From: Rickettsiales bacterium
GTDB lineage: Bacteria; Pseudomonadota; Alphaproteobacteria; Rickettsiales; UBA3002
DNA length: 64,000 bases
Direction: 5' to 3'
Assembly (NCBI GenBank): GCA_046154225.1
Contig: JBJXEM010000041.1
Coordinates: 3,411 to 67,410, forward strand
The first letter of the stretch is position 1. Each line of letters starts with the position of its first letter. A model generated the notes under the pieces. The model ran no database searches. It was given only the letters and a program-made list of their open reading frames with translations, and was not told the origin of the DNA. This document shows, piece after piece, positions 1,338 to 16,580 of the stretch. The position numbers were made by a program, and so were the translations under genes.

Positions 1338-1341
1338 CTAG

Positions 1342-2483: not shown

Positions 2484-3371
2484 ATGCAAATCAAACCGGA
2501 TTTATCGCGCATCGCTTCTTACACATTGGCAGATGACGGGCCAAAGCCTACAACCATTCGTTGCTATTCGAACGGACAGCAAAATTTATTTTACATTAAC
2601 GCCAGCCATGTACGCGGAACGGATAATGCGACATGCGCTAAAATTGAAGAAGCGATTACCTACCTAAAGCCGCAGCGTGTTGTCATTGAAGCATGTAACG
2701 ATCAGCCCATAAATGAGGGCAGTGAAGTCGCATATGCAAATACATTAGCAGCCCAATATAATATTCCTTTGGTTCGTGCGGAACCATCGGATAAAGCCGT
2801 TTTCGATAATATCGGTGTCAAAGGCTATTCGGCAAAAGATGTGATGGCGCTGTATTTGCTGCGATCCATTCCGCAAGGCAGACAGCAAGGCTATGTCATG
2901 GATGAGCCTCATTTCGCAGAACGCGCACGCCAGTTTTTATCTGGCCATCCAGCATTTGCGCATATTCCTGCATCGGAAAGGCTATCTTACGAAGAGTTCA
3001 AAGCAAAGTATGTCCCACTGCTTGGTAAAAATTTTCTCGAAACAACTACTAATGACTTTGCTCCGTTTGAACATGAAGGTGCGACCTATTTTCAGAAATT
3101 GAACGCTGCTGTCGGCTGGATACGCGAAGCGCATATCGATACAACGATTGGCAATACGCTGAATGAAGTAGGAGCTGATAATGTGCTAGTAGTATATGGT
3201 GGTGCTCACCGCACGATTTCAGAGCCAGTTTGGGAGCATGCGTTAGGCAAAGGTGCTGATGTAAGTCCCATTCAAGAGGCTACGGGCATCCCGTATCGTA
3301 ACGATTGGACACTGCAACCACGCAATCAACAAGGGCGCGTTGTTGCAATAACCCGTAGCGCAACCAATTAA
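2484..3371 (+). CDS. Hypothetical protein (orphan); weak resemblance to the Tiki/TraB/ChaN-type GxxH ... GGAH motif pair
   Basis: A 295-aa ORF in AT-rich DNA. FYINASHVRG near the N-terminus and LVVYGGAHRT near the C-terminus recall the two His motifs of the Tiki/TraB/GumN superfamily. This is a by-eye comparison only. Confidence 0.45.
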   Translation: MQIKPDLSRIASYTLADDGPKPTTIRCYSNGQQNLFYINASHVRGTDNATCAKIEEAITYLKPQRVVIEACNDQPINEGSEVAYANTLAAQYNIPLVRAEPSDKAVFDNIGVKGYSAKDVMALYLLRSIPQGRQQGYVMDEPHFAERARQFLSGHPAFAHIPASERLSYEEFKAKYVPLLGKNFLETTTNDFAPFEHEGATYFQKLNAAVGWIREAHIDTTIGNTLNEVGADNVLVVYGGAHRTISEPVWEHALGKGADVSPIQEATGIPYRNDWTLQPRNQQGRVVAITRSATN

Positions 3372-3500
3372 GCGAGCATTCGCTCGATAACTTCACTGCT
3401 GGCATAGTTAATTCGATGCCGTACAATCGCGGCGAAATCTGGCGCAAAGGTTCGAAAACTGTTCACTACGCGCCGCCACATGTCCTCACACCCTGCATCG

Positions 3501-4106
3501 TTACAAATCCCCGGTCTTAAACTCACTATAGCCCTCGTAGTAATAGCTGACATCGATGCCTTTCATGAAGATTTCGCGGTCGTGGATTTTGTCGGTCAGT
3601 GCAGCGTGCAGGAGGTGTTTGATTTCCACATCCTTCACCACGCTGCGTTCCATCGCTGAGAGATAGGCGTCCTTGTCCACCAAATTCCAATCGATTACGT
3701 TTTGGATGTTCGTTTTGAGCATCACGTCGAGCCAGATGCGCATGGCGCGACCGTTGCCTTCACGGAAGGGATGCGCGATATTCATTTCAACATATTTTTC
3801 GATGATATCATCAAACGTGCTATGCGCCATGGTGTCGAGATGGGCCAGTGATTGCGGCAAATACATGAGCGGCGCAAAACGGAAATTTCCCTTCGCGATG
3901 TTCACATCGCGGATGTTGCCCGCAAACGCATAAATATCCTCAAACAGAATTTTGTGAATCCGCGCCAGCCCGGCAAAGGTTCCCACTTCAATCGCATCGA
4001 TTTCCTTCGAGTCGAAAAGCTGCTTGGCTTTTTGCTTGCTAATTTTTTCCTCGGCCCTGCTCAAATCCACCTGATGGGTGAGATGTAATTTATTTTCTAA
4101 CACCAT
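3501..4106 (-). CDS. fic: Class III Fic-domain protein (AMP-transferase with a C-terminal auto-inhibitory helix, NmFic-like)
   Basis: Fic motif HPFREGNGRAMR (HxFx[D/E]GNGRxxR). The C-terminal SYYYEG fits the inhibitory [S/T]xxxE[G/N] motif. The roughly 200-aa length and overall similarity to Neisseria NmFic (IDAIEVGTFAGL..., KYVEMNIAHPF...) agree with this call. Confidence 0.9.
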   Translation of the reverse strand: MVLENKLHLTHQVDLSRAEEKISKQKAKQLFDSKEIDAIEVGTFAGLARIHKILFEDIYAFAGNIRDVNIAKGNFRFAPLMYLPQSLAHLDTMAHSTFDDIIEKYVEMNIAHPFREGNGRAMRIWLDVMLKTNIQNVIDWNLVDKDAYLSAMERSVVKDVEIKHLLHAALTDKIHDREIFMKGIDVSYYYEGYSEFKTGDL

Positions 4107-4717: not shown

Positions 4718-5053
4718 ATGGTAATTTTTATGAGTAACAAAAAACTCCTTATCATCAGCTTGCTGTTAGCCACGCTACCGCAGCTCGCTTTCGCCGATGA
4801 TTTTCGCCTGACTTATAAGGACGGCAATTTCACTCCCGCCACACTTACCATCCCTGCCGGTGAAAAAGTGAAGCTCATAGTAGTGAATCAGGATGCCTCG
4901 CCCATCGAGTTCGAAAGCCACGAACTGAACCGTGAAAAAGTGGTTTCCGGCAATGGCGAAGCGGTAGTGTTTGTCGGTCCGCTTAAGGCTGGAAGCTACC
5001 CTTTCGTCAACGAGTTCAACGAGAAGGCTAAAGGCACCCTCGTCGCCAAATAA
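4718..5053 (+). CDS. Periplasmic cupredoxin-like protein associated with an FTR1 permease (FtrB-like)
   Basis: Signal peptide KKLLIISLLLATLPQLAFA, then a single beta-sandwich-sized domain (TLTIPAGEKVKLIVVNQD...AGSYPF). It lies directly upstream of an FTR1 permease. An alternative start is at 4730. Confidence 0.7.
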   Translation: MVIFMSNKKLLIISLLLATLPQLAFADDFRLTYKDGNFTPATLTIPAGEKVKLIVVNQDASPIEFESHELNREKVVSGNGEAVVFVGPLKAGSYPFVNEFNEKAKGTLVAK

Positions 5054-5231
5054 TTCATCAGTTCTCTGGAGTTTCCTGCTCCATGTGTGCTGCGTCCCGC
5101 TCGGGTGTTTACAGCAGAATCCTCGGCGGATTGAGATACGAAGGCGCGGATTTCTTCGGCATTAGCGACGCCGCGGCCAATCAGGCAGCCCGTGTGCTGG
5201 TGGAATATGCATTCTATTTTAGAGGTCACCC

Positions 5232-6062
5232 ATGCTCGCCACATTAATCATCGTGTTTCGTGAAGTGATGGAAGCCGGGCTTGTCGCAGGCATCGTGCTG
5301 GCTGCCACGCGCGGCGTGCCGCAGCGTGGCCGGTTCGTGGCTTATGGCATTGCTGGCGGCGTGTTGCTGGCCTGTGTGGTCGCCATGTTCGCGCGTACTC
5401 TCGGCGAAGCGATGGAAGGGTTCGGGCAGGAATATTTTAACATCGGCATCCTCAGTGCCGCTGTACTGATGTTGACATGGCATAACGTGTGGATGGCCCG
5501 TCACGGCCGCGAAATCGCCACCGAAATGCGGGCGCTTGGGGCCGAAGTGGCAAGCGGCAATCGCACCCTCACCGCACTAGCCGTGGTGGTAGGCGTGGCG
5601 GTGCTGCGCGAGGGTTCGGAAGTGGTGCTCTTTTTATATGGCGTGGCCATTTCGGGGCAAAACTCTGCCGCGTCGATGCTGAGTGGTGGCGCGTTGGGGC
5701 TGGTGCTCGGCGTCGCGCTGGCGTGCGTAACCTATCTTGGCCTCATGCGCATTTCGAACAAAAACCTGTTCAAAGTCACGACCTGGATGTTGGCTCTGCT
5801 GGCGGCTGGTATGGCCACGCAAATCGCGTTTTATCTGCAGCAGGCACAAATCGTGACGGTGCTGGGCGACGTGGTGTGGGACAGCTCGGCCATCTTGGCG
5901 GATAGCAGCATCGCGGGCAAAGCTTTGCACACGCTGGTGGGCTATACCGACCGCCCCACGGCATTACAGTTGTTGGTGTATGTGGCCATGCTGGCGGTTA
6001 CCGCAGTGCTGATGCGCCTGTTCGGCCACACGCCGCAACCCAAGTTGCAAGCGACCGCCTGA
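5232..6062 (+). CDS. FTR1-family high-affinity iron permease
   Basis: Two REXXE motifs (FREVMEAG and LREGSEVV) in a polytopic membrane protein of 276 aa. The SD AGAGG lies 6 nt upstream. Confidence 0.85.
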   Translation: MLATLIIVFREVMEAGLVAGIVLAATRGVPQRGRFVAYGIAGGVLLACVVAMFARTLGEAMEGFGQEYFNIGILSAAVLMLTWHNVWMARHGREIATEMRALGAEVASGNRTLTALAVVVGVAVLREGSEVVLFLYGVAISGQNSAASMLSGGALGLVLGVALACVTYLGLMRISNKNLFKVTTWMLALLAAGMATQIAFYLQQAQIVTVLGDVVWDSSAILADSSIAGKALHTLVGYTDRPTALQLLVYVAMLAVTAVLMRLFGHTPQPKLQATA

Positions 6063-6908
6063 TTATTTCAGCCGATGCTCGATGCTTTTCTCTAGATCGT
6101 CGAGCCGTCGGATAATCTGGCCGATTTGCAACTCGGCGCGCACATTTATATCGTGGTCGATTTCCGCCACCAAGCGGTCTTTATCGGCGGCGCGGTTCTG
6201 GCTCATCATGATGATGGGCGCGGAATAAACAGCAAGAAACGACATGCCGAGATTGAGCAAAATGAACGGAAACTGATCCCATAACGGCCACGGGTTTTCG
6301 GGGTGCGCGGCATTATGCACGTCGGCGATGGAGTTCCACGCAATCCAGCCGAAAATGACAATGCTAATGGCAAAAATAAAGCGCCAGCTGCCCATCACCT
6401 GCGCCACCCAATCGCTGACGCGCGCACCAAAAGTGATGCGTGCGTCGTCAATCTGGTTCACGTTGGCAATCGGTTCGCCGCGTAGCAACGCGTCGGATTT
6501 ATACACGCGCAGCGCCAGCGTTTTCATCACATCAATCGCGGCTTGCGGATGGGCAACCAGGAATTTCTCAAACGCATCAAACGCGAGGGTGAGCATCTGT
6601 GTGGCCGTGACCGAACGCACACGCGCCGCGCGCGGCTGCTGAGTGAGCAGTGCCAGCTCGCCAAAATATTCTCCCGCCCCCGCTTCGCCCAACAACACTT
6701 CTTCGCGCGCATGGCTGTGGGTAATGAACTGCACCTGACCGGACAGGATGATGAAAAAGCTGTCACCCGGCTCGCCCTCACGCAAAATGGTTTGGCCCGG
6801 GGCGAACGACACGGGCTGCATCGCCGCACGTAAATCCGGCAGCGCTTCGGCCGCCACGTTGGCGAAAAGCGGAATGCTGTTCAGGTCGAATTGCGCGAAA
6901 TTATCCAT
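6063..6908 (-). CDS. Cyclic-nucleotide-binding domain protein fused to a DUF1003 membrane domain
   Basis: N-terminal cNMP-binding fold (FFIILSGQV...FGELALL...RAARVRS). The C-terminus carries the DUF1003-type PFILLNLGMSFLAVYSAPIIMMSQNR segment. The start overlaps the upstream gene by 8 nt. Confidence 0.8.
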   Translation of the reverse strand: MDNFAQFDLNSIPLFANVAAEALPDLRAAMQPVSFAPGQTILREGEPGDSFFIILSGQVQFITHSHAREEVLLGEAGAGEYFGELALLTQQPRAARVRSVTATQMLTLAFDAFEKFLVAHPQAAIDVMKTLALRVYKSDALLRGEPIANVNQIDDARITFGARVSDWVAQVMGSWRFIFAISIVIFGWIAWNSIADVHNAAHPENPWPLWDQFPFILLNLGMSFLAVYSAPIIMMSQNRAADKDRLVAEIDHDINVRAELQIGQIIRRLDDLEKSIEHRLK

Positions 6909-7284
6909 CCATCATCCCCGTTTGCAGTGCGATGATTGTGAGTAAAATATAGGTGAGCTGGTGCAAAAACTGGTCGAAGCCAAACACGATCCAATACCAC
7001 GCACCCGAATGTGCGTTCAGGGAATAACGTTTGTTGATTTGATTCTTCGCCCAGTCGATATGATAGTGAATCACCGCATCGAGTAGCGCGAGGCCCAGCG
7101 CGGCCCATGGCCCCACAAACAGCACCGCCACCAGCCATGTTCCCGCCGCGTGAATGCTTACATGCAGCAGCCCGCCGGGGTGACCGTAAATGCCTTTATT
7201 CTGGTACTGATACGGCCGCTGCAATGGAAAATCGCAGAGGAAATGTTTGGCCATCAGGGCCACAAGCAGTGCCAGTTGCGTCAT
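6901..7284 (-). CDS. DUF3307-family membrane protein
   Basis: KHFLCDFPLQ ... HVSIHAAGT ... HYHIDWAKN pattern in a 127-aa hydrophobic protein. There is an ATGA overlap with the cyclase stop. Confidence 0.65.
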   Translation of the reverse strand: MTQLALLVALMAKHFLCDFPLQRPYQYQNKGIYGHPGGLLHVSIHAAGTWLVAVLFVGPWAALGLALLDAVIHYHIDWAKNQINKRYSLNAHSGAWYWIVFGFDQFLHQLTYILLTIIALQTGMMDG

Positions 7285-8582
7285 GCGAGTACCACGATGT
7301 CGAGGGGTTCAGTCACACCCGCAACCGTACGGGCGAGCCGGATTTCTTTCGGCGCAGGTGGTGCATAGCCTTGTGACAGCGCTTCAGTGAGTGTTGCACC
7401 ATTGGTGAGGGCGCGGGCGTTTTCGGGCTTGTTGTGTTTCTCGAGTTTGGCCGCGAGGTTTACGGTTTCGCCGATCACGGTATATTCCAGCCGGTCGTGA
7501 TCGCCAATCACGCCGAACACCACTTCGCCCACCGCCACGCCTGCGCCGATGGCGACTGGCACCAGCCCCTGTGCGCGGCGCATTTCGCTCCAGCTATCGG
7601 CGGCGAGCATGATGGCATCGACCGTGCGCAGCACGTTGGCGGCGCACTGATTGCAGGCGGAAACGGCCCCGAAACTGGCCAAAATGCCGTCGCCCATGAA
7701 TTTGTCGATACTTCCGCCAAACTGGCGGATGATGGGCACGACGAGCTGCTGATATTCGGCCAATAGCGCAATTAATTCGCTCGGGCTCAGATGAGCGGAA
7801 GCTTTGGTGAACCCACGCATGTCGGTGAACAAAATGGCAGCGTGGCGGATTTCGCCGCTGCCCACCATCAGCCCGTCTTCCGACTCGGTGATTTTCATGG
7901 CCACGTCGGTATCGAAGAACTTCGACAGTTCCTTCGTGGCCTGCGTTTGACTGACGGCGGTGAACAACGTGTCGCGCGCGCGGCTGAGTGTATAGGCGGT
8001 GATGCCGGTGACGAGCCCGATGGCCAGAATTTTGTCGAATTCGCCGCCCGGGTGCAGGCTGCGCGTGGAGGCATACGTTACGTAATCCCAGGTAATCACC
8101 CCCTGCCCCGTCACATGCAGCACATAAGCGACGAGCAGCGTCCAACCAAGCATGGCCGTAACGCCCGACACCACCACCCAGCGCGGCTCGAAGCGTAAGC
8201 CGCGCAGCGCAATCAGCACGAACACATAGGCGATATGCGTGTTTTTCAGGTCGATATTCGGCAACGCTTCAAACTGCAAATGGTAGGTGCCGATGATGAA
8301 AATCAGCAGCGCCATTTCGGTGACGACCGAGAAAAATAGGAACATTGCATTGAGCTGCTTGCTGTAGGCAAACCACAGTCGCACCAGCACCAGAATAACG
8401 AACAATCCAAGCCCCAGCGGCACCGAACGCACCGCCGCATCCGGCGGGTGGCCCACAGGCGCGATGAAATAAATCAGCCCGAGCAGCGCCGCCACGCCCA
8501 GCTGCAAAAACGCCACCAGCAATTCGCTTTTGTGCTGCAGTTCGGCGAGATCGGCATGAATGCGGCGTTGGGGGGCTTTCAT
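7281..8582 (-). CDS. Membrane-anchored class III adenylate/guanylate cyclase (about 6 TM N-terminal domain)
   Basis: The catalytic domain reads AILFTDMRGFTKASA...IDKFMGDGILASFG...GVAVGEVVFGVIG...EYTVIGETVNLAAKLE. I chose the ATG at 8582 (MKAPQRR), which forms an ATGA overlap with the upstream stop. The longer ORF reaching 8642 is rejected. Confidence 0.85.
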   Translation of the reverse strand: MKAPQRRIHADLAELQHKSELLVAFLQLGVAALLGLIYFIAPVGHPPDAAVRSVPLGLGLFVILVLVRLWFAYSKQLNAMFLFFSVVTEMALLIFIIGTYHLQFEALPNIDLKNTHIAYVFVLIALRGLRFEPRWVVVSGVTAMLGWTLLVAYVLHVTGQGVITWDYVTYASTRSLHPGGEFDKILAIGLVTGITAYTLSRARDTLFTAVSQTQATKELSKFFDTDVAMKITESEDGLMVGSGEIRHAAILFTDMRGFTKASAHLSPSELIALLAEYQQLVVPIIRQFGGSIDKFMGDGILASFGAVSACNQCAANVLRTVDAIMLAADSWSEMRRAQGLVPVAIGAGVAVGEVVFGVIGDHDRLEYTVIGETVNLAAKLEKHNKPENARALTNGATLTEALSQGYAPPAPKEIRLARTVAGVTEPLDIVVLA

Positions 8583-8857
8583 AGTGTTTCCGCCCGGCCG
8601 CCGTGAATGCGTTCGCACAGGCCGCTTGGCAGCATTACCCATTCATCGGGATCGCGGTCGGCGCTGGATTGCATAGCGCAGGAATGTTTAGGCGTGGCGC
8701 AATCATTATGGCCCTGGCGCGCCACACCGAAGCAGCGTTCGCGCTCGATTTTTTCGGCCGCGTGCATTTGCAGCCAGTTGGTTTGCGTGTGCACTACCGC
8801 CAGCGCTGCACCCAGTGCCGCAAGCACCACCACGCCGTTTTGTGCGGTGCGACTCAC
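8579..8857 (-). CDS. DUF2282-family secreted 4-Cys peptide (BufA1-like bufferin precursor candidate)
   Basis: Signal peptide (VVVLAALGAALAVV...MHA/AEK), then CFGVARQGHNDCATPKHSCAMQSS...EWVMLPSGLCERI. This matches the DUF2282 pattern C-[FY]-G-V-A-x-x-G-x-N-D-C-A ... SCAG ... W ... P-x-G-x-C. The GTG start is 1 nt after the adc stop, with a GAAGG SD. Confidence 0.75.
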   Translation of the reverse strand: MSRTAQNGVVVLAALGAALAVVHTQTNWLQMHAAEKIERERCFGVARQGHNDCATPKHSCAMQSSADRDPDEWVMLPSGLCERIHGGRAETL

Positions 8858-8858
8858 G

Positions 8859-9626
8859 TTATTTCGCCTTCAAGTAATCATGTACTACGCGGCCATAGGG
8901 TAGTGTAGCGTCCGCCACCACGTGCAAGCCGCCGATGACGCGACGCACCGGCAAATCGGCCACCGGCGCGTTCACATGCGCGTTCAGCTGTAGGCGCGCA
9001 GGCCCGGCCCATGCGCCTTTTACGGTGATATCGGACATGTTGTAGGCCACGAGTTGCGCAATGGCGGCATTACCGTCCACATGCGGGATCCATTTCAGGT
9101 TCACGCGGGTAGCACCTAGGCGTGCCGTCAACTCAGCCAGTTCCGCTGCACCGTTTTTGCCGTCTAGCAAGTTCTGGTGCTTGTAGGTCATGGTCGCGAC
9201 GGCAACCAGTTCGCCGGCATATTCCAAACGGCCCGTGAGTGTGTCGTGGGTGATTTTTAGCGAAGCTTTGCCTAATTTTTGCGGGAAGCCCCAAATCTCG
9301 CGCCCGCCGGAAATGGGGGGTTCGCAGTCGAGATACATCTGGCTCACATGGTTCATGGCCACCCCGTCGAGCGTAGCCGGAATCACGATGCCCGTTTGGG
9401 TGTACACGCCAAACCCTGAACTATCGGCCATGCGCGCGAATTCGTAAAACACCTGGTTGCTACCGTCGGGCTGAAGCGGCTGCGGCAGTAATCGGCGAAT
9501 CGCTTCGGCGTCAGATTCATAGGTGATGATGAGGTATTCGCGGTTGAAGTAATGATACGGCCCGCGCGGATAAGTCGGGCTCGCCACCGGCATCGACGGG
9601 GAATTGAGAATATCAGCGATTTTCAT
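8859..9626 (-). CDS. adc: Acetoacetate decarboxylase (paralogue 2)
   Basis: Full-length similarity to clostridial Adc: SPTYPRGPY.FNREY, MYLDCEPPISGGREIWGFPQKLG (catalytic Lys region), VKGAWAGPARLQL and LPYGRVVHDYL. Confidence 0.85.
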   Translation of the reverse strand: MKIADILNSPSMPVASPTYPRGPYHYFNREYLIITYESDAEAIRRLLPQPLQPDGSNQVFYEFARMADSSGFGVYTQTGIVIPATLDGVAMNHVSQMYLDCEPPISGGREIWGFPQKLGKASLKITHDTLTGRLEYAGELVAVATMTYKHQNLLDGKNGAAELAELTARLGATRVNLKWIPHVDGNAAIAQLVAYNMSDITVKGAWAGPARLQLNAHVNAPVADLPVRRVIGGLHVVADATLPYGRVVHDYLKAK

Positions 9627-9629
9627 GCG

Positions 9630-10400
9630 TTATTTCTCCGCCAGATAATCATGCAGCACTCGGCCATAGGGCAAGGTTAAATCGGCCACGAAATGGGTGC
9701 CACCAATCACCCGACGCACAGGCAAATCGGCTACGGGTGCGTTCACATGCGGCATTAAATCGAGCCGCGCGGGGCCCGCCCACGCGCCCTTTACCGTGAT
9801 TTCCGACAGGTTATAGCCCACCAATTGCGCAATCGCGAGGCTACCGTCCACATCGGGAATCAGTTTCAAATTCACCTGCGTTTTGCTCATTTTCTTCACG
9901 ATGGCGGCGGGGTCGTTCATGCCCGTCTCGGGGTTGCGGATGAGGTTTTCGTGTTTGTACACCATGGTGCCCACCGCCACCTCTTCGCCCGCATATTCGA
10001 TGCGGCCGGTGAGCGTGTCGTGCACGACACTCAGCACCGGATGCGCGAATTTTTTGGGGAAGCCCCACACTTCGCGTCCACACGAAATGGGCGGTTCGCA
10101 ATCGAGATACATTTGCGCGGTGAAGTTGACATGTTCGCCCTGAAACAGCGCCGGAATCACGATGCCCGATTCGGTGTAATCGCCAAAGCCCGAACTGTCC
10201 GGCATGCGGATGAATTCATAAAGCACGGTGTTGCTGCCGTCGGGCTCCAGCGGCTCGGGCAGCGCGTGGCGAATCGCTTGCGCGTCGGACTCGTAAGTGA
10301 CGATAAAGTACTCGCGGTTGATAAACCGATACGGCCCGCGCGGGTAGCTGGGGCTGGCCAACGGCATTGAAGCGAGGCCAAGAATTTCGTCAATTTCCAT
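9630..10400 (-). CDS. adc: Acetoacetate decarboxylase (paralogue 1)
   Basis: It has the same motifs as the neighbouring copy (SPSYPRGPY, MYLDCEPPISCGREVWGFPKKF). The two copies are roughly two-thirds identical by eye. The gap to the downstream copy is 3 nt. Confidence 0.85.
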   Translation of the reverse strand: MEIDEILGLASMPLASPSYPRGPYRFINREYFIVTYESDAQAIRHALPEPLEPDGSNTVLYEFIRMPDSSGFGDYTESGIVIPALFQGEHVNFTAQMYLDCEPPISCGREVWGFPKKFAHPVLSVVHDTLTGRIEYAGEEVAVGTMVYKHENLIRNPETGMNDPAAIVKKMSKTQVNLKLIPDVDGSLAIAQLVGYNLSEITVKGAWAGPARLDLMPHVNAPVADLPVRRVIGGTHFVADLTLPYGRVLHDYLAEK

Positions 10401-10412
10401 GTCAACTGGCTC

Positions 10413-11480
10413 CTATAAAAATTCTTTGCGTATATCAACGGACGATTCTTTGCCGATCTTGACATAGTTTTCATCCAGCCATTGTTTGGCAATCGCTCGC
10501 CCTTTATCGCGCAGATGGCAGAGAAATTCCCAATCGGTATTCATTTTGCTCGACGCATCATATTCCGACATCGCCGCATCCGAACGCACGGAATGAATAT
10601 GCATTTGCTTCATATCACTCGCTTTTACTTTTTTGTCCTCAATTAGTTTGCCAACAAACGCAACGGCACGCATTTCGCGCATGAGGGATGAATTGAAACT
10701 CACCTCGTTCAAACGATTCAGGATCTCGGAAGCGGTAGTGGGAACACCTTTGCGCACAATCGGATTGATATGCACAATGACCACGTCTTGCGAGTCGCAA
10801 TGATATATCAGCGGGAAAATGGCGGGGTTGCCGATATAGCCACCATCCCAATAATATTCGCCTTCAATTTCTACCGATTGAAACATGAATGGCAAACACG
10901 CAGAGGCCAGAATCGCATCGACATTAATTTCCTTGGTTTCAAAAATACGCACTTTGCAGGTTTCCACATTGGTCGCGCAAATATTGAGTTTGATGGGAGA
11001 GCGTTTACGAATAGCTTCAAAATCAATCGTCTTCTCCAAAATATCTTTCAGTGGATTGAGGTTGAATGGATTGAGTTGATAGGGCGAAAAAACCCGTGTC
11101 ATGAAGTCGGCGATGTGGTCAAGCGGTGATGGCTCTGGTTTGAAATTCGCCTTTTTGCCAAACCACGAAAAACTTGGGAGCGATTTTAGCGGATTCGATT
11201 TTTTTGAAACATCGCTGACAGTCTGCCAGAAATGCGTGAGCGCCGCACGCGCCTCTGCCTTATCGTTATTTAAAAGCCCCTGGGCAAGCACCACGGCGTT
11301 CATTGCGCCGGCGCTGGTGGCGCTGATGCCTTCAAACTCTAGCCGTCCATCTTCCAATAAATAATCCAGTACACCCCAGGCGAATGCCCCGTGCGAGCCG
11401 CCGCCCTGAAGGGCGAGGTTAATGGTTTTTGCTTTTGCGTTAGCCGATGAAGGCGCACGTGCTTTGGTGTTGGTTTTCAT
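10413..11480 (-). CDS. patD: Patatin-like phospholipase/esterase (PatD-type, linked to bdhA)
   Basis: Oxyanion GGGSHG and serine-lipase box ATSAG (INLALQGGGSHGAFAWGVLD...GISATSAGAMN). I chose the ATG at 11480 (MKTNTKAR), 11 nt downstream of the bdhA stop. The longer ORF reaching 11726 overlaps bdhA. Confidence 0.75.
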   Translation of the reverse strand: MKTNTKARAPSSANAKAKTINLALQGGGSHGAFAWGVLDYLLEDGRLEFEGISATSAGAMNAVVLAQGLLNNDKAEARAALTHFWQTVSDVSKKSNPLKSLPSFSWFGKKANFKPEPSPLDHIADFMTRVFSPYQLNPFNLNPLKDILEKTIDFEAIRKRSPIKLNICATNVETCKVRIFETKEINVDAILASACLPFMFQSVEIEGEYYWDGGYIGNPAIFPLIYHCDSQDVVIVHINPIVRKGVPTTASEILNRLNEVSFNSSLMREMRAVAFVGKLIEDKKVKASDMKQMHIHSVRSDAAMSEYDASSKMNTDWEFLCHLRDKGRAIAKQWLDENYVKIGKESSVDIRKEFL

Positions 11481-11491
11481 GATTCTGATCC

Positions 11492-12274
11492 TTACCGTGC
11501 TGTCCATCCGCCATCGACCGGCAAGGCAATGCCGGTAATGGAGCTGCCAGCATCGCTGCATAAGAATGCCACGGTCGCGCCCATTTGTTCCGGCGTTGCG
11601 AACCGCAGCGATGGTTGCTTTTCCGAAAGCATTTCTTTCGCAGCTACGTCGGCCGCAATGCCCTCTTTCGCCGCACGATCGTCGATTTGTTTTTGCACGA
11701 GCGGGGTAAGCACCCAGCCTGGGCAAATGGCATTGCAGGTAATTTGCTGCGTTGCGTTTTCGAGAGCCACCACTTTAGTCATACCCACAATGCCGTGCTT
11801 GGCGGCGACATAGGCGATTTTCTCTGGCGAACCAACCAATCCATGTGCCGAAGCGATGTTGATGATACGCCCAAAATTACGTTTCTGCATGCCCGGCAAA
11901 ATGGCTTTAATCGCATGAAATGCGCTCGACATATTGATCGCAATGATCGCATCCCACTTATCTTCAGGAAACGCTTCTGTGCGCGACGTGAACTGAATGC
12001 CCGCGTTATTCACGAGAATGTCTGCGGAGCCAAAGCTGGTTTCGCAGAGCTTCACCATCTCACGGATTTGCTCAGGTTTGCTCATGTCGGCGGGCGAATA
12101 GACGCATTTTACACCATGTTTTTTCTCAAGACCCGTACGCTCGGTTTCAATCGCCCCCGCATCACCAAAACCGTTGATGACGATATTAGCGCCGTGACTG
12201 GCGAGTACATGGGCAATGCCCAGGCCAATGCCGCTAGTGGAACCGGTGACGATGGCAGATTTTCCTTTTAACAT
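11492..12274 (-). CDS. bdhA: D-3-hydroxybutyrate dehydrogenase (SDR family)
   Basis: MLKGKSAIVTGSTSGIGLGIA (TGxxxGIG), NNAGI and the YVAAKHG catalytic triad region in a 260-aa product typical of BdhA. The SD AAGGAGAA lies upstream. Confidence 0.85.
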   Translation of the reverse strand: MLKGKSAIVTGSTSGIGLGIAHVLASHGANIVINGFGDAGAIETERTGLEKKHGVKCVYSPADMSKPEQIREMVKLCETSFGSADILVNNAGIQFTSRTEAFPEDKWDAIIAINMSSAFHAIKAILPGMQKRNFGRIINIASAHGLVGSPEKIAYVAAKHGIVGMTKVVALENATQQITCNAICPGWVLTPLVQKQIDDRAAKEGIAADVAAKEMLSEKQPSLRFATPEQMGATVAFLCSDAGSSITGIALPVDGGWTAR

Positions 12275-12341: not shown

Positions 12342-14549
12342 CTACAGTGAATTTGCATTTGTTGAATCAGTAATCAACCGAATCGAGCGTTTGAAGGTCA
12401 GGTAGGCCCAGAACCACTCAACCATCACCGCCACACGGCTTTGTAAATTGGCCAAAAACAGCACATGCACCGCGCCCCAGAACCACCACGCCAGCGCGCC
12501 TTGCAATTTCACCTTGCCAAAATCGGCCACGGCGGCTTTTCGGCCGATGGTGGCGAGGCTGCCGTAATGGCGGTAGTGGAAAGCTTTTTGTGGAACACTG
12601 CCTTCAATCCTGGCGCGGATATGTTTGGCGACGAACTGGCCGCTTTGCTTTGCGGCGGGGGCGAGGCCCGGCATCGGCTTACCCTTCCACACTTCAGCCA
12701 ACACCGTGTCGCCAATGGCGTAAACACCCGGGCAATTTGGAACGCTGAGATCAGCGTTTACTTTTAAGCGCCCGGCGCGGTCGGCCTCGCCACCCAGCCA
12801 TTGCGCGGCGGGTGACGCTTGCACGCCTGCGGCCCAAATCACGTTGAGTGAGGCAATGCGCTCGCCATTCACCACCACGCCGTCGGCGTCGATCGTTTCC
12901 ACCCGTCCACCAGTTTTTACGGTGACGCCCAATTTCTCGAGCGCTTTTTGGGTGTAGGTCGAAATGCTTTCCGGCATCACCGCCAGCACGCGCGGCCCGG
13001 CTTCCACGAGGTAGATTTTTGCATTTGCGGGGTCGATGCGGCGGAATTCGTCTTCCATGCCCTGGTGTGCAAGTTCGGCCAATGCGCCAGCTAACTCCAC
13101 GCCCGTGGGGCCACCGCCGACAATCACGAAGCTTAGTAATTTTTCACGCAAGGCGGCATCGTCGGTGTTTTCAGCGGCTTCAAACGCGCGCAGTAGCTTG
13201 CCGCGCACGGCGATGGCGTCTTCCACCCGTTTCATGCCCGGCGCGAATTCCGACCACGCGTCCTTACCGAAATAGCTATGGCGCGCACCGGTTGCGAGCA
13301 CCAGATAGTCGTAAGCAAGCGATTTACCGTTAGCCAATTTCACGTGACGGGCGGCTTTGTCGATGCCTGTCACTTCGTTCATCATCACCCGGATATTCTC
13401 CTGATCGCGAAATAGGCCGCGAATGGGCGTTGCAATGTCCGACGGCGACAATCCTGCGGTCGCCACCTGATACAGCAGCGGCTGGAATAAATGGTAGTTA
13501 TGCTTGTCGACCAGCGTGATGCGGCAGGCCGTGGTACGCAGCATGCGCGCGGTGGCGACGCCGCCGAAACCGGCGCCCACAATCACCACATGCGGCAAGC
13601 CGTCGTAATTTTTGGTCGCCATGCCATCGAGCTGCGGGAAGATTTTCCCAAGTGTCAGGCGCACGATATGGTCGAGCGACAGAGCACCGGGCCCGCGGAA
13701 AAACAGAATAGTAAGCAGCATGAACCAATAAACGAATTCGGTTTCTTGTACTGAACTGGCATCAATGTCCTGAGTGAGCACCGCTAGAAGCACTAGCGAT
13801 GCAGCAGCCACCAACCGCGTACCAAACCCAAGGGCCAGTAACAATGCACCCGCGCCACAAAGCAACTCGGCTAAACCGTTTTCCTGCATGGTGCGCAATA
13901 CCGAATAATGCGGTTGGTATTCGAGGAATTGCAGCGGCTCGGCAAAGCTCATCGATTCCATGGCAGCGTGGCCGGCCACATACAGCACCGCCGCAATCCA
14001 CAGCCGCATACCCAGCAGATAGATTGGGCCGATAACCCGCGTGAGCCAGGCAAAAAAGTATGAAAATGTTTTACTGAGCGGCAGCGCCGTGTCCTTCAGC
14101 CCGCGCAACAGATGGTCGAGCGAATTGCGCCCTGCCCCCATCACCACCCAATAGCCGAGAATAATAATCCAGAACGCCTGCGCGTTCACGGGGTGATACG
14201 CAATTTGCGCGATGGCCGTGAGTATTAGTAAGGGTAGCGCTGCAAAGCGTGTCATGAGGCCCAGCACCAGCAGCACGGGGCAAATGATTTCGATCGCGAC
14301 GCCGAGATACGCCGCGCTCACCGGGTCGATCCAGCTGAGGGGATATTCGTTGGCGGCGAGGTATAGCGCCGTGTCCCAATTGCCGAGTTTCAGTGCGCCG
14401 GAAATGAAGAATGCCTGCGCGATGCTGATGCGGCGGATGAGGTCCATGACCGGCGCCAAAACCCGTTCGCTGAACCGGAGCACTTGCCCAATCCCGCGCA
14501 TGATATCGGCGAATATGTGACGATAGCGATGCGTGATAGCTTGGCTCAT
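12342..14549 (-). CDS. Fusion protein: two DoxX-family membrane domains + type II NADH:quinone oxidoreductase (NDH-2)
   Basis: The N-terminal ~330 aa contain two DoxX-like 4-TM modules ([15 protein letters not shown]...[11 protein letters not shown] and a second [13 protein letters not shown] module). They are followed by [15 protein letters not shown]...LVLATGA...[15 protein letters not shown]...VYAIGD and an NDH-2 C-terminal membrane-anchor segment. I chose the start at 14549 (MSQAITH), which gives an ATGA overlap with the upstream stop. Confidence 0.8.
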
Positions 14550-16246
14550 GCGGCGGACCTTTTGTTGGCGGCGTTGTCGGGGTGGTGGGCGAGAATGCCG
14601 TTGCGCATCCAGCGCGGGAACCAGTGATTGAGCAGCCCGCCGATGGCTTCGTCGGCAATGGCGTGTTCGGCCTGCACGGCTTCCAGCGCATCGCCGATGC
14701 TGAGGCCCGCGAATAATTGGCGGAGCATGCTGTATTCGTCGGCCTCTAAATCCATGCGCCACACCGCATCCTCGTGGCGGAACACTGCGAGGTAATTTTT
14801 CTCGGGCGCAGGCGCAGCGGGCGATTGCTCGTCTTTCACCGCGCGGTAATAGGCGTTTACAGGATAATCGAAGACTAAAAGTTCAAGGGCTGCGCGTGGG
14901 TGAAGCTTCGATTCCATCAACGTTTCTGCGTCCATGCCCTCAAGATGCTGGGGTTCAAGCGGAGCAGTTTCAGCTTCGTCCATCAGACGGGTGATACAAG
15001 CTTCGAGTGTCGCGAGTTCCAGCGCGAACGGATCGCTGGTTTCGTGAGTTGCCAGAAACTGCGGCAATTGCAGTGGGTAGCGGCTGATGTTGAAATGCGT
15101 CGACTGCGCCTGATTCACAAAATCGGTAATGAGCGTGTCGAAGCGCGCTTCGCCCAGATAATGTTTCAACACCAGATAATCTTCCGCCGTCACGCCGAAC
15201 AGCCGCCCACGATAGGCGTTGGTGTATACCGCCAGCTGCGCCTCAGCCGGGAAATCGTTTTTCGTGCGAATCCACTCGTCGGGCTTACTGTCGAGCCGTG
15301 CGCCTTCGAGAATAGCCGTTTGCATACGCGTTTGTGTGTCGGCCAGTGGCGTGGCGTGGTTCGCGACATACGGCGCGTGGGCGACGGCGAGTTGAGGCAG
15401 CGGTGCGTAATTGGCGGCATCGCGCGCGGCTTCTTTTGCTTTGGTGAGTTCGGCGTCGAGCACCGAGAATTCGGGAATATTGTCGTCCCACTCGACCATG
15501 GTGTTGGGTGTGCGGCCTGCTTTATGCACCACGTATTTGTATAACGCCCAGACTTCGTCGACCACATGGTCGTCATGCGTGTCGATGATGTGGGTGCCCC
15601 GGTTGGTGTGGCCGGAAAGGTGGATTTGCACCACTTTATCAAGCGGCAGCGTGTCGATGTATGTTTGCGCGTCGAGCCGGTGGTTGAAGCTGCTGACATA
15701 CACATTGTTCACGTCGAGCAACAAATGGCAGCCCGATTCCTCGACCATGCGGGCGATAAATTCCGCCTCGCCCATGTCGGACGCTTTGAATTCGAGATAC
15801 GTCGAGGGGTTTTCGAGTGCGATGGGCCGCTCCAGAAAATCCTGCACCTGTTTGATACGGCTGATGGTGTGCTTCAGCGATTCCTCGGTGTAGGGCATCG
15901 GCAGCAGGTCGTGCGAGTTTTTGTGGGCGATGCCGGTCCAGCATAAATGGTCCGACACCCAGGCGGGTTTCAGCCAGTCCATCAACGCTTTCAGCTTTTG
16001 CATGTACTCAGAATTCACGGGGTCAACCGTGCCGATCGACATGGCAACGCCGTGCATGACGATGGGATAACGCTCGCGAATGCGGGCCAATTTGCGCTTG
16101 GGTCGCCCGTCGGTATCCATGAAGTTTTCGGAGATGATTTCGAACCAATCGACGGCGGGCCAGTGATCGAAAATATGTTTGTAATGGCTCACGCGCAGGC
16201 CAAGACCAAAGCCTAATTGCGGAAAAAAATCCTGCTGCGTGGTCAT
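14546..16246 (-). CDS. Fusion of a DUF692/MNIO (MbnB/BufB-like) enzyme with a DUF2063 (MbnC/BufC-like) partner domain
   Basis: The N-terminus [12 protein letters not shown]...[10 protein letters not shown]...HGVAMSIG...SDHLCWTG...ENPSTYL...[10 protein letters not shown]...IHLSGH is the TIM-barrel DUF692 signature. The C-terminus [12 protein letters not shown]...[13 protein letters not shown]...[13 protein letters not shown] is DUF2063-like. I chose the start at 16246 (MTTQQDFF). Confidence 0.85.
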
Positions 16247-16271: not shown

Positions 16272-16303
16272 AAAAAAGGCGGGGGTGCGAACACCCCCGC
16301 CCC
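16272..16303 (-). terminator. Strong GC hairpin + U-tract between precursor gene and modification genes (attenuating terminator candidate)
   Basis: On the minus strand the sequence reads GGCGGGGGTG-ttcg-CACCCCCGCC followed by TTTTTT. It lies in the 76-nt gap between 16323 and 16246. Confidence 0.7.
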
Positions 16304-16322: not shown

Positions 16323-16580
16323 CTACTTCTTGCTGCCGTCGGTAGCGCAGCCGCCTTGGCCTTTGCACTCGTTGTGACCTTTGCACTCGTGCTTGTCGGT
16401 TTTGCAGCCGCCGTTGCCTTTGCAGGAGTTCTGGCCGGCGCAAGCGTGCTTCTCAGCAGCTTTTTCAGCGGTGGCGGATTTTTCAGCTTTGTGAGCTGCG
16501 TTAGCAACGCCAGCAGCCATGAAACCAGCGGTCAGCAGACCAGCGAGAGCAGCGGTAGCAATTTTTTTCGTAGCAGACAT
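16323..16580 (-). CDS. Secreted 6-Cys peptide, bufferin-type (BufA2-like) RiPP precursor candidate
   Basis: Leader MSATKKIATAALAGLLTAGFMAAGVANA. The core CAGQNSCKGNGGCKTDKHECKGHNECKGQGGC is two C-x-G-x-N-x-C-K-G-x-G-G-C repeats. The SD AGGAGAA lies 5 nt from the ATG, and the gene sits immediately 5' of the DUF692 gene. Confidence 0.75.
   Translation of the reverse strand: MSATKKIATAALAGLLTAGFMAAGVANAAHKAEKSATAEKAAEKHACAGQNSCKGNGGCKTDKHECKGHNECKGQGGCATDGSKK

What the first reader, a model, noticed from the sequence alone, without database searches (positions are those of the whole stretch)
6063..8857. Second, orphan bufferin-type precursor (DUF2282) ATGA-coupled to a membrane adenylate cyclase, DUF3307 and a cNMP-binding DUF1003 protein
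The 92-aa ORF has a signal peptide and the DUF2282 4-Cys core (CFGVARQGHNDCATPKHSCAMQSS...LPSGLCERI). There is no DUF692 gene next to it. The only MNIO gene in the window lies about 5.7 kb upstream on the same strand.

Its stop overlaps the start of a 6-TM class III cyclase (ATGA). That cyclase is in turn ATGA-coupled to a DUF3307 gene, which overlaps a cNMP-receptor/DUF1003 gene by 8 nt.

The arrangement suggests two things, and both are inference:
(i) one MNIO enzyme services two different precursor classes;
(ii) a periplasmic metal-binding peptide is wired to a cyclic-nucleotide second-messenger circuit, for example as ligand or co-sensor of the cyclase membrane domain.

I am not aware of either having been described for bufferins.
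Basis: partly seen in the sequence, partly recalled or inferred. Interest (0 to 1): 0.75.

Follow-up and report, generated by a model that had tools for sequence, protein, structure and literature searches.

The report
Bufferin-like peptide paired with membrane cyclase
A small copper-peptide-like gene is always found directly in front of one particular membrane adenylate cyclase in many proteobacteria, including Legionella, which suggests that a "metal-buffering" peptide family has been recruited as the outside sensor of a cAMP signalling enzyme.

Summary
All four Pfam assignments and all three gene overlaps were verified.

The word "orphan" is misleading. The 92-aa DUF2282 gene is the ninth gene of a tightly spaced, co-directional 11-gene array. 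The order is BufA2-like precursor, MNIO/DUF2063, DoxX-NDH2, SDR, patatin, ADC, ADC, DUF2282, cyclase, DUF3307, cNMP/DUF1003.

The DUF2282 belongs to a distinct subfamily, which I call BufA1c.
- In 92 of 92 loci with readable downstream sequence it sits directly upstream of one clade of 6TM class III cyclase. That count includes 43 of 43 independently retrieved metagenome contigs.
- Canonical DUF2282 copies are never followed by the cyclase (0 of 55).
- The pair occurs in Legionella (lpg0673/lpg0674), Burkholderiales, Rhodocyclaceae, Xanthomonadales-type lineages (Rudaea, Rhodanobacteraceae) and Azotobacter.
- It nearly always lies beside other bufferin genes (26 of 29 loci, against 1 of 23 for the cyclase sister clade).

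DUF3307 is conserved only in the closest relatives. The cNMP/DUF1003 gene was seen in only some of those.

Best reading, which is inference: BufA1c is the periplasmic metal- or redox-sensing partner of the cyclase.

The idea that one MNIO serves two precursor classes stays untested, and the literature has already floated it in general terms. The Legionella adjacency was listed in 2011 and 2017 papers but never interpreted.

Verdict: new variant of a known kind, of fairly high interest.

The parts
8579..8857 (-). BufA1c. A 92-aa DUF2282/BufA1-family protein of the cyclase-linked subfamily, with an N-terminal hydrophobic segment, a spacer and a 4-Cys core.
   Evidence: Pfam PF10048 at E=4e-21. 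Scores 131 bits on the subfamily HMM. Orthologues lie upstream of the cyclase in 92 of 92 loci.
7281..8582 (-). A 433-aa membrane class III nucleotide cyclase. It has a 6TM N-terminal domain that matches no Pfam family, a helical linker and a class IIIb-like catalytic domain with K294 and T368. The transition-state Arg is replaced by Lys379.
   Evidence: Pfam PF00211. PDB alignments to Cya2, CyaB and CyaC. AlphaFold2 pLDDT 90 with six TM helices. The 6TM part matches no Pfam family. ATGA overlap with BufA1c.
6901..7284 (-). DUF3307 membrane protein of 127 aa, ATGA-coupled to the cyclase. It is conserved only in the closest relatives.
   Evidence: Pfam PF11750 at E=1e-11. Overlap read. Present in L003, L081-L083, L088, L095 and L168/L169.
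6063..6908 (-). A 281-aa protein with an N-terminal cyclic-nucleotide-binding domain (phosphate-binding cassette FGELALLTQQPRAARV) and a C-terminal DUF1003 membrane domain. It is the putative cAMP receptor of this lineage.
   Evidence: Pfam PF00027 at E=6e-22 and PF06210 at E=1e-28. 8-nt overlap with DUF3307. Present in the same position in L003 and L168/L169.
8859..10400 (-). Two tandem acetoacetate-decarboxylase-family (ADC) genes, 9630-10400 and 8859-9626, directly upstream of BufA1c.
   Evidence: Pfam PF06314 at E=3e-74 and 6e-72. An ADC gene lies next to the BufA1c-cyclase pair in 22 of 40 clade-A loci.
10413..12274 (-). An SDR resembling 3-hydroxybutyrate dehydrogenase (11492-12274) and a patatin-like hydrolase (10413-11477).
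   Evidence: Pfam adh_short_C2 and Patatin. The same pair occurs in L081, L083, L086 and L168.
12342..14549 (-). DoxX-DoxX-NDH-2 fusion (type II NADH dehydrogenase). Its start is ATGA-coupled to the MNIO stop.
   Evidence: Pfam DoxX, Pyr_redox_2 and NDH2_C. ATGA read.
14546..16246 (-). MNIO (BufB-type) fused to DUF2063 (BufC-type). It is the only MNIO in the window.
   Evidence: Pfam PF05114 at E=1e-106 and PF09836. NCBIfam MNIO_BufB at 364 bits, above its cut-off of 310. Closest to BufA2-linked MNIOs.
16272..16303 (-). Intrinsic-terminator-like hairpin between the BufA2-like gene and the MNIO gene: a 12-bp GC-rich stem followed by U6.
   Evidence: Sequence read. Fold of -30.3 kcal/mol, z-score -2.9.
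16323..16580 (-). BufA2-like 6-Cys precursor of 85 aa (Cys-Lys type) at the head of the array.
   Evidence: NCBIfam Cu_RiPP_BufA2 at E=3e-14, 52.8 bits, just below its cut-off of 60. Sequence.

Best explanation
**What is shown**

The 92-aa ORF is a true DUF2282/BufA1-family protein. It belongs to a separate orthologous subfamily, which I call BufA1c. That subfamily is encoded only directly upstream of one clade of six-transmembrane class III (IIIb-like) adenylate cyclases. The pair is often translationally coupled. It sits inside a conserved bufferin-type neighbourhood made of MNIO/DUF2063, DoxX-NDH-2, a BdhA-like SDR, patatin and ADC.

**What is inferred**

1. BufA1c is exported by its Sec-type N-terminal segment, or is tethered to the membrane by it.
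2. Its two central Cys are probably converted to thiooxazoles by a co-clustered MNIO/DUF2063.
3. The copper-bound or redox state of the peptide is read by the conserved periplasmic face or membrane domain of the cyclase dimer, which sets cAMP output.
4. In the window's lineage the cAMP is read by the co-translated cNMP-binding DUF1003 membrane protein. DUF3307 is an accessory membrane component.
5. In other lineages the cAMP receptor is encoded elsewhere.
6. The surrounding genes suggest that the signal ties periplasmic metal or redox status to stationary-phase energy metabolism. Those genes cover mobilisation of 3-hydroxybutyrate or PHB, acetoacetate decarboxylation and quinone-linked NADH oxidation.
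For: **Family assignments** come.

**Forward test**
- 40 of the best 80 genomic relatives of the cyclase carry the DUF2282 gene immediately upstream on the same strand.
- These 40 include essentially all relatives with at least about 50% identity to the window's cyclase.

**Subfamily separation**
- On the custom subfamily HMM, cyclase-adjacent copies score 106-144 bits.
- MNIO- or DoxX-adjacent copies, often in the same loci, score 62-101 bits.

**Reverse test**
- Metagenome contigs were retrieved through DUF2282 patterns only.
- 43 of 43 high-scoring copies with downstream room are followed by the cyclase.
- 0 of 30 low-scoring copies are.
- Overall the counts are 92 of 92 against 0 of 55.

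**Diagnostic features of the subfamily**
- Invariant Asn7.
- An extra spacer of about 15 aa after the hydrophobic segment.
- RERC(Y/F)G in place of EKC(A)G.
- A near-invariant His before the third Cys.

**Bufferin context**
- 26 of 29 clade-A loci with full flanks hold MNIO, canonical BufA1, BufA2 or DoxX within 6 kb.
- Only 1 of 23 loci of the sister cyclase clade do.
- In Legionella an MNIO/DUF2063 pair with no precursor of its own lies convergent to the cyclase.

**Coupling**
- ATGA or 8-nt overlaps occur in the window, Legionella, L001, L027, L081 and L168.

**Cyclase**
- It has a well-predicted 6TM domain.
- Its periplasmic loops hold family-invariant residues such as T164, D166 and near-invariant W165 and Y167.
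- The catalytic residues for ATP are present: D254, D298, K294, T368 and N375.

**Expression**
- L. pneumophila lpg0670-lpg0674 behave as one up-regulated cluster in post-exponential and transmissive phase (PMC3048289).

**Background**
- Canonical Buf1 is a periplasmic copper-binding thiooxazole peptide (PMC11626156).
- Membrane anchors of 6TM cyclases can act as receptors (PMC4821796).
Against: - There is no direct evidence of contact. A mutual-information scan of 74 peptide/TM-domain pairs (effective number 42) gave only noise.
- No BufA1-cyclase fusion protein appeared among the best 150 of 1,172 profile hits.
- The sister cyclase clade keeps a similarly conserved 6TM domain without any DUF2282. 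The cyclase can therefore sense or function without the peptide.
- The transition-state Arg is Lys in the whole family, so catalytic competence is unproven.
- The window's only MNIO is of the BufA2-linked type.
- Two relatives, L083 and Azotobacter L086, show no MNIO within 10 kb. Modification of BufA1c is therefore not assured.
- Conserved synteny could reflect co-regulation only.
Confidence: 0.5

Rival explanations
1. Co-regulation without contact. BufA1c is simply one more periplasmic copper-buffering bufferin paralogue. The cyclase is the regulator of the cluster, or merely a passenger in it; for example it may make cAMP that controls the operon through a CRP-type factor. The fixed gene order then reflects stable vertical or mobile inheritance of an operon, not a sensor-partner relationship.
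For: - The pair sits within a larger conserved array.
- Intergenic gaps of 40-300 nt in Burkholderiales and Rudaea show that translational coupling is not universal.
- The sister cyclase clade works without the peptide.
- No coevolution signal and no fusion proteins were found.
Against: - The peptide forms a separate orthologous group with its own invariant features, and it is never found away from the cyclase.
- The other genes of the array (ADC, NDH-2, MNIO, DoxX) come and go or change position.
- A generic buffering paralogue would not be expected to track one gene so exclusively across Legionellales, Burkholderiales, Rhodocyclaceae, Xanthomonadales-type lineages and Azotobacter.
Confidence: 0.27
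2. Unmodified redox or assembly partner. BufA1c is not processed by an MNIO. It acts through its four Cys and conserved His as a periplasmic thiol/disulfide or metal switch. Alternatively it acts through its N-terminal membrane segment as a structural subunit or chaperone of the cyclase.
For: - Two relatives have no MNIO within 10 kb.
- The window's MNIO is of the BufA2-linked type.
- BufA1c lacks the clean AxA site that precedes the core in canonical copies, and it has an extra spacer.
- In L003 a 47-codon version keeps only the N-terminal segment and is still ATGA-coupled on both sides.
- The DoxX-NDH-2 context is quinone- and redox-linked.
- PMC12452194 states that stand-alone precursors may be unmodified.
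Against: - The core keeps the full DUF2282 signature around the two central Cys, which are the ones modified in Buf1 (PMC11626156).
- 19 of 29 loci have an MNIO within 6 kb.
- Legionella has a precursor-less MNIO pair next door.
- The N-terminal segment is only modestly more conserved than ordinary BufA1 signal peptides.
- L003 is a single metagenome-assembled case.
Confidence: 0.18
3. Fortuitous neighbour. This is an orphan, possibly decaying bufferin gene that happens to lie beside an unrelated cyclase in this genome.
For: [quoted passage not shown]
Against: - The adjacency is conserved in 92 of 92 loci, and the peptide subfamily is distinct.
- The ORF is intact.
- Its Pfam score is well above threshold.
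- It has overlapping start and stop codons with its neighbours.
Confidence: 0.02

Closest known systems
Bufferin 1 precursor BufA1 (DUF2282) of Caulobacter vibrioides and the gig/buf operons (PMC11626156, PMC12452194)
   Same: - Same Pfam family.
- Four conserved Cys with the same spacing.
- Sec-type N-terminus.
- Encoded in a neighbourhood with MNIO, DUF2063 and DoxX.
   Different: - It is a separate subfamily. It has RERC(Y/F)G, a near-invariant His before the third Cys, invariant Asn7, an extra spacer, and no clean AxA site just before the core.
- It is followed by a cyclase rather than by MNIO.
- No SigF/NrsF genes were noted near it in the annotated loci.
- Its function is proposed to be signalling rather than bulk copper buffering.
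- Modification and copper binding have not been shown.
Legionella pneumophila 'H4' cluster lpg0671-lpg0676 (PMC5413113) and cluster lpg0670-lpg0674 (PMC3048289)
   Same: - Orthologous arrangement: DoxX-NADH dehydrogenase, ADC, DUF2282, adenylate cyclase, then DUF2063 and DUF692.
- The cyclase is about 60% identical to the window's.
   Different: - The cluster was described only as a list of gig homologues plus 'two additional genes', and as a co-up-regulated cluster. No functional link between peptide and cyclase was proposed.
- Legionella lacks DUF3307 and cNMP/DUF1003 at this locus.
- Legionella has its own MNIO pair without a precursor.
Six-transmembrane class III adenylate cyclases such as M. 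tuberculosis Rv1625c/Cya (PDB 7YZK) and the proposal that the membrane anchor is a receptor (PMC4821796)
   Same: - Same overall build: 6TM, helical linker, then one catalytic domain that must dimerise.
- Full-length structural alignment to 7yzk_A.
   Different: - The catalytic domain is closer to the IIIb enzymes CyaB, CyaC and Cya2.
- The 6TM domain has no Pfam family.
- The transition-state Arg is Lys.
- A dedicated small exported protein is encoded with it.
Periplasmic accessory sensors of membrane signal transducers, such as LuxP-LuxQ, TorT-TorS and CpxP-CpxA (from general knowledge)
   Same: The logic is the same: a small periplasmic protein, encoded next to a membrane transducer, binds the signal and modulates cytoplasmic output.
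   Different: - The output here is a nucleotide cyclase, not a histidine kinase.
- The accessory protein belongs to a RiPP metallophore family.
- No interaction has been demonstrated.

Membership tests
DUF2282 / BufA1 bufferin precursors | Match to Pfam PF10048 above the gathering score | tested here: met
   75.1 bits against a cut-off of 22.4, E=4e-21, profile positions 2-52 of 53.
DUF2282 / BufA1 bufferin precursors | Four conserved Cys (CysI to CysIV) in a protein of 80-120 aa | tested here: met
   92 aa with C42, C53, C60 and C81. The four Cys are invariant in the 12-sequence alignment A2, and the consensus over 85 cyclase-linked sequences keeps them at 90% or more.
DUF2282 / BufA1 bufferin precursors | Cleavable N-terminal Sec signal peptide | tested here: inconclusive
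   - A positively charged n-region and a hydrophobic stretch of about 15 residues are present.
- The clean AxA site just before the core, seen in canonical copies, is missing, and a spacer of about 15 aa follows.
- AlphaFold2 predicts one long helix over residues 3-31 at low confidence.
- No signal-peptide predictor was available.
DUF2282 / BufA1 bufferin precursors | Genetic association with MNIO (BufB) and DUF2063 (BufC) | tested here: inconclusive
   - The gene is not adjacent to an MNIO.
- An MNIO/DUF2063 fusion lies 5.7 kb upstream in the same co-directional array.
- 19 of 29 related loci have an MNIO within 6 kb.
- Two relatives show none within 10 kb.
DUF2282 / BufA1 bufferin precursors | Central Cys converted to 5-thiooxazoles; copper binding | not testable with these tools
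   This needs mass spectrometry, UV absorbance at about 305 nm, and metal-binding assays.
Class III adenylate cyclase (IIIb-like) | Match to Pfam PF00211 and a cyclase catalytic fold | tested here: met
   E=2e-13. Foldseek gives TM-scores of 0.81-0.85, normalised to the target, against Cya2, CyaC and CyaB.
Class III adenylate cyclase (IIIb-like) | Two metal-binding Asp and the Lys/Thr substrate-specifying pair | tested here: met
   D254, D298, K294 and T368 are invariant in 91 homologues and align to CyaB.
Class III adenylate cyclase (IIIb-like) | Transition-state pair Asn and Arg (NxxxR) | tested here: not met
   Asn375 is present, but the Arg position is Lys379 (NLAAKLE against NLASRLE in CyaB). 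The Lys is invariant in the family. The effect on activity is unknown.
Class III adenylate cyclase (IIIb-like) | cAMP synthesis | not testable with these tools
   This needs an enzyme assay or complementation of an E. coli cya mutant.
Cyclic-nucleotide-binding domain proteins | Match to Pfam PF00027 with an intact phosphate-binding cassette | tested here: met
   E=6.5e-22. The motif FGELALLTQQPRAARV is visible in the sequence. The comparison with PKA- and CAP-type cassettes rests on general knowledge.
DUF3307 and DUF1003 | Pfam matches above the gathering score | tested here: met
   DUF3307 scores 45.3 bits against 23. DUF1003 scores 99.9 bits against 27.4. The paper library holds no functional study of either family.

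The most novel reading that the evidence does not exclude
A member of a RiPP metallophore family has been recruited as the natural extracellular ligand or subunit of a bacterial six-transmembrane class III adenylate cyclase. MNIO-matured, copper-loaded BufA1c would gate cAMP synthesis through the cyclase membrane domain. That would be the first signalling role for a bufferin, as opposed to buffering. It would also be the first identified physiological input for the membrane anchor of a 6TM bacterial cyclase, and it would be directly testable in Legionella pneumophila with lpg0673 to lpg0676.
Probability: 0.3. Interest if true: 0.85.

Novelty: new variant of a known kind. Interest (0 to 1): 0.7.

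Why it matters
Two open questions meet here.

1. What do the membrane anchors of six-transmembrane class III cyclases sense? A receptor role has been argued for years, but natural inputs are scarce.
2. What do the many "stand-alone" bufferin genes do? The published survey treated their flanks as not conserved.

A dedicated bufferin-type partner that tracks one cyclase clade across several proteobacterial orders gives a concrete and genetically tractable hypothesis. It is available in a culturable pathogen, as L. pneumophila lpg0673 to lpg0676. It would extend bufferins from metal buffering to second-messenger signalling.

The conserved link to DoxX-NDH-2 and to genes for 3-hydroxybutyrate, patatin and acetoacetate decarboxylase also hints at a tie between periplasmic copper or redox status and the use of storage carbon in stationary or transmissive phase.

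Tried and rejected
- **Coevolution.** Mutual information with APC correction between BufA1c and the cyclase 6TM domain used 74 pairs with an effective number of 42. The top pairs were scattered over cytoplasmic, membrane and periplasmic positions, so the result is uninformative.
- **Fusion proteins.** A profile of 21 BufA1c sequences was run against 1.84 billion representative proteins and gave 1,172 hits. No BufA1-cyclase fusion appeared among the best 150. A single-sequence word-index search reached only 21 close relatives.
- **N-terminal conservation.** I tested whether the BufA1c N-terminal segment is unusually conserved. At matched core identity it is only modestly above canonical signal peptides (0.43 against 0.34, and 0.65 against 0.55). 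I dropped the strong claim that it is a membrane anchor.
- **Clade-specific loop residues.** Both cyclase clades have conserved periplasmic loops. Only minor clade-specific differences appeared, such as the loop-1 PDAP motif and TWDY against TRDY. This is not decisive.
- **Fold search.** The search with the full cyclase model hit only catalytic domains and generic 6TM cyclases. A Pfam scan of the 6TM part at E up to 10 found nothing.
- **BufA1c model.** The AlphaFold2 model has pLDDT 67, too weak for a fold search.
- **Promoter and terminator scan.** Counts were at chance level and no intergenic terminator was reported. I did find a strong hairpin after the BufA2-like gene by eye, and folding confirmed it.
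- **Rfam.** No match in the window.
- **Source contig.** A look-up of the window's own contig for taxonomy found nothing on record.

Full report
**1. The observation**

All four genes lie on the minus strand.

- ORF 8579-8857 encodes 92 aa. It matches Pfam DUF2282/BufA1 at E=4e-21, at 75 bits against a cut-off of 22.4. It carries the quoted four-Cys core.
- Its GTG start lies one base after the stop of the upstream ADC gene. The start agrees with the N-termini of its homologues.
- ORF 7281-8582 encodes 433 aa and contains a class III cyclase domain.
- ORF 6901-7284 is DUF3307. ORF 6063-6908 is cNMP_binding plus DUF1003.
- The two ATGA overlaps and the 8-nt overlap are present in the sequence.
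- The window holds one MNIO gene, at 14546-16246 on the same strand. It holds no second DUF2282 or cyclase.

**2. The local setting: not an orphan**

From 16580 down to 6063 there are eleven co-directional genes:

1. a BufA2-like six-Cys precursor
2. an MNIO/DUF2063 fusion
3. a DoxX-DoxX-NDH-2 fusion
4. an SDR
5. a patatin-like hydrolase
6. an ADC-family gene
7. a second ADC-family gene
8. the DUF2282 gene
9. the cyclase
10. DUF3307
11. cNMP/DUF1003

- The MNIO stop and the DoxX-NDH-2 start share ATGA.
- The gap to the SDR gene is 67 nt. From the SDR gene onward no gap exceeds 14 nt (coordinates).
- The only strong terminator-like structure I found lies right after the BufA2-like gene. It is a 12-bp GC stem plus U6. 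In my experience (not checked here), RiPP precursor genes are often followed by such attenuators.
- It also places the MNIO start at the ATG at 16246.

The peptide is thus part of the same array as the MNIO, not a detached gene.

**3. Conservation: forward test**

The cyclase has about 2,000 detectable homologues. Many of them are full-length at 52-73% identity.

- A scan of one genome per species returned 564 relatives, and the best 80 were kept.
- In 40 of those 80, a DUF2282 ORF lies immediately upstream on the same strand. These 40 include essentially all relatives with at least about 50% identity to the window's cyclase.
- The taxa are:
  - many Legionella species and Fluoribacter
  - Undibacterium, Massilia and Janthinobacterium
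  - Paraburkholderia, Trinickia, Ralstonia and Cupriavidus
  - Aquabacterium and Azohydromonas
  - Rhodocyclaceae and Zoogloeaceae
  - Rudaea and Rhodanobacteraceae
  - two MAGs labelled Alphaproteobacteria or Azospirillum
- Azotobacter chroococcum shows the same arrangement.
- The spacing ranges from overlaps of 1-14 nt (window, Legionella, L001, L027) to gaps of 40-300 nt (Burkholderiales, Rudaea).

The other 40 loci have 42-48% identity and are mostly Alphaproteobacteria. They have no DUF2282. Instead they carry an MBL-fold protein, a methyltransferase-like protein or a response regulator upstream.

**4. A distinct peptide subfamily, and the reverse test**

I built an HMM from the cyclase-adjacent peptides.

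- Cyclase-adjacent copies score 106-144 bits.
- The MNIO- or DoxX-adjacent DUF2282 copies, often in the same loci, score 62-101 bits.

That HMM was trained on the genomic loci, so I also used an independent set. It consisted of 80 metagenome contigs retrieved through DUF2282 sequence patterns alone.

- All 43 high-scoring copies with room downstream are followed by the cyclase.
- None of the 30 low-scoring copies is. Instead, 22 are followed by MNIO, 2 by DoxX, 1 by DUF2063 and 5 by other genes.
- Over all loci the split is 92 of 92 against 0 of 55.

The subfamily (BufA1c) has its own invariant features:

- Asn7 at the start of the hydrophobic segment
- an extra polar spacer of about 15 residues
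- RERC(Y/F)G where canonical copies have EKC(A)G
- a near-invariant His before the third Cys

**5. Link to bufferin biosynthesis**

- Of 29 clade-A loci with full 6-kb flanks, 26 contain another bufferin-cluster gene. The counts are MNIO 19, canonical BufA1 15, DoxX 11, NDH-2 15 and ADC 16.
- Only 1 of 23 loci of the sister clade does.
- In L. pneumophila and seven other Legionella/Fluoribacter loci (L002, L004, L005, L007, L009, L011, L012), an MNIO/DUF2063 pair lies convergent to the cyclase. In the L. pneumophila locus, which I inspected directly, it has no Cys-rich precursor of its own. The pairs form their own sequence cluster.
- The simplest reading is that this pair matures the cyclase-linked peptide.
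- In the window's lineage the only nearby MNIO groups with BufA2-linked enzymes. It is 46-52% identical to those, against at most 46% to BufA1-linked ones.
- Two relatives show no MNIO within 10 kb.

Modification of BufA1c is therefore plausible but not established. The general idea was already stated by the authors of the MNIO survey. [quoted passage not shown]

**6. The cyclase**

- The AlphaFold2 model has mean pLDDT 90.4. It shows six transmembrane helices: 5-40, 53-73, 79-98, 117-130, 133-158 and 178-221. The last continues into a cytoplasmic helix that leads to the catalytic domain.
- The periplasmic loops are 41-52, 99-116 and 159-177. They contain family-invariant or near-invariant residues, for example T164, W165, D166 and Y167.
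- The 6TM part matches no Pfam family.
- The catalytic domain is closest to Cya2, CyaB and CyaC.
- It has both metal Asp and the Lys/Thr pair. From general knowledge, that pair marks class IIIb adenylate cyclases.
- The transition-state Arg is replaced by Lys in every family member. I cannot tell whether this affects activity.

**7. The downstream genes**

- DUF3307 follows the cyclase with ATGA coupling in the window, L003, L081-L083, L088, L095 and L168/L169.
- cNMP/DUF1003 is present in the window, L003 and L168/L169. L168/L169 carry essentially the same co-directional array as the window, but with the first DoxX domain as a separate gene (12 genes).
- Neither gene is present in Legionella, Burkholderiales or Azotobacter.
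- They are therefore lineage-specific additions.
- The cNMP domain has an intact phosphate-binding cassette, which fits a cAMP receptor.
- DUF1003 and DUF3307 have no functional literature in the searched library.

**8. What the literature already has**

- Jwanoswki et al. listed the L. pneumophila "H4" cluster. It consists of lpg0671 (DoxX-NADH dehydrogenase), lpg0672 (ADC), lpg0673 (DUF2282), lpg0674 (adenylate cyclase), lpg0675 (DUF2063) and lpg0676 (DUF692). They treated the ADC and the cyclase as "additional genes" (PMC5413113).
- Weissenmayer et al. saw lpg0670-lpg0674 up-regulated together in post-exponential and transmissive phase (PMC3048289).
- No paper in the library combines BufA1 or MNIO with adenylate cyclase.
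- The adjacency in one species was therefore on record. Three things appear to be new: the exclusive subfamily pairing, its breadth, and a functional reading.

**9. The mechanism I consider most likely**

Shown:
- a dedicated DUF2282 subfamily
- obligate adjacency to one cyclase clade
- frequent translational coupling
- embedding in bufferin-type clusters
- co-expression in Legionella

Inferred:
- The peptide reaches the periplasmic face and is matured like Buf1.
- It reports copper or redox status to the cyclase membrane domain.
- The resulting cAMP is read by the cNMP/DUF1003 protein in this lineage.

The neighbouring SDR, patatin, ADC and DoxX-NDH-2 genes suggest a tie to mobilisation of 3-hydroxybutyrate or PHB and to quinone-linked NADH oxidation. 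That is speculation from gene content.

Rivals:
- co-regulation without contact
- an unmodified redox or structural partner
- chance adjacency, which the data contradict

**10. Limits**

- No direct evidence for contact was obtained.
- The sister clade shows that the cyclase can exist without the peptide.
- Whether the N-terminal segment is cleaved or serves as an anchor is unresolved.
- One MAG carries a 47-codon, core-less version that is still coupled on both sides. I cannot explain it.
- The source organism of the window is unknown.

**11. Verdict**

This is a real and conserved feature. The "orphan" label and the generality of the DUF3307 and cNMP/DUF1003 part need correcting.

It is a new variant of known kinds, namely bufferin precursors and 6TM class III cyclases. 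I rate its interest as fairly high.

Noticed in passing
window 12342-16246 (-): An MNIO/DUF2063 fusion is ATGA-coupled to a DoxX-DoxX-NDH-2 (type II NADH dehydrogenase) fusion. The same DoxX-NDH-2 link recurs in Legionella (lpg0671), Azotobacter and the closest relatives. It suggests that NADH- or quinone-derived electrons are tied to the bufferin system.
   Followed up: partly
window 8859-12274 (-): An SDR resembling 3-hydroxybutyrate dehydrogenase, a patatin-like hydrolase and two tandem acetoacetate-decarboxylase-family genes sit between the MNIO part and the peptide-cyclase pair. ADC lies next to the pair in 22 of 40 related loci. I cannot explain why ketone-body or PHB-type genes travel with bufferin genes.
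   Followed up: partly
window 16272-16303 (-): A strong intrinsic-terminator-like hairpin (12-bp GC stem plus U6, -30 kcal/mol) lies directly after the BufA2-like precursor gene and before the MNIO start. The consensus terminator scan missed it. It is probably an attenuator that sets the ratio of precursor to enzyme.
   Followed up: partly
window 7446-7448 (-), cyclase residue K379: The transition-state Arg of class III cyclases is Lys in this protein and in all 91 aligned homologues, including the clade without the peptide. The other catalytic residues are intact.
   Followed up: partly
L003 5849-5992 (+): In a MAG labelled Azospirillum the peptide gene is a clean 47-codon ORF. It keeps only the conserved N-terminal hydrophobic segment and lacks the whole Cys core. 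It is still ATGA-coupled to ADC upstream and to the cyclase downstream. No remnant of the core appears in other frames.
   Followed up: partly
L030-L080 (cyclase clade without the peptide): The sister clade of the cyclase is mostly alphaproteobacterial. It usually has an MBL-fold protein, a methyltransferase-like protein of about 280 aa or an OmpR-type response regulator directly upstream, in about 14-20 loci each.
   Followed up: no
L081 1123-3263 and 12679-16886; window 366-4106: - In L081/L082 the whole array is flanked by a phage-type integrase, a Bro-N protein and a run of small unknown genes.
- In the window the adjacent 4 kb has lower GC (47-48% against about 57%) and encodes ParB_N and Fic proteins.
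- The array may ride on a mobile island, as the Legionella GIG operon does on ICE-beta-ox.
   Followed up: no
window 4718-6062 (+): A cupredoxin-like gene and an FTR1 iron permease gene lie convergent to the end of the array. This is another metal-related pair next door.
   Followed up: no
P0148: A 5,447-aa protein in the representative library carries 16 separate DUF2282-like stretches. That is far beyond the 835-aa maximum reported for Buf1-domain proteins in PMC12452194.
   Followed up: no
L168 528-1460 and L170 1202-2139: In the closest relatives a TetR-family regulator and an extra canonical BufA1 gene lie just upstream of the array, on the opposite strand. One MNIO would then have three candidate precursors nearby. 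The window lacks this pair.
   Followed up: no
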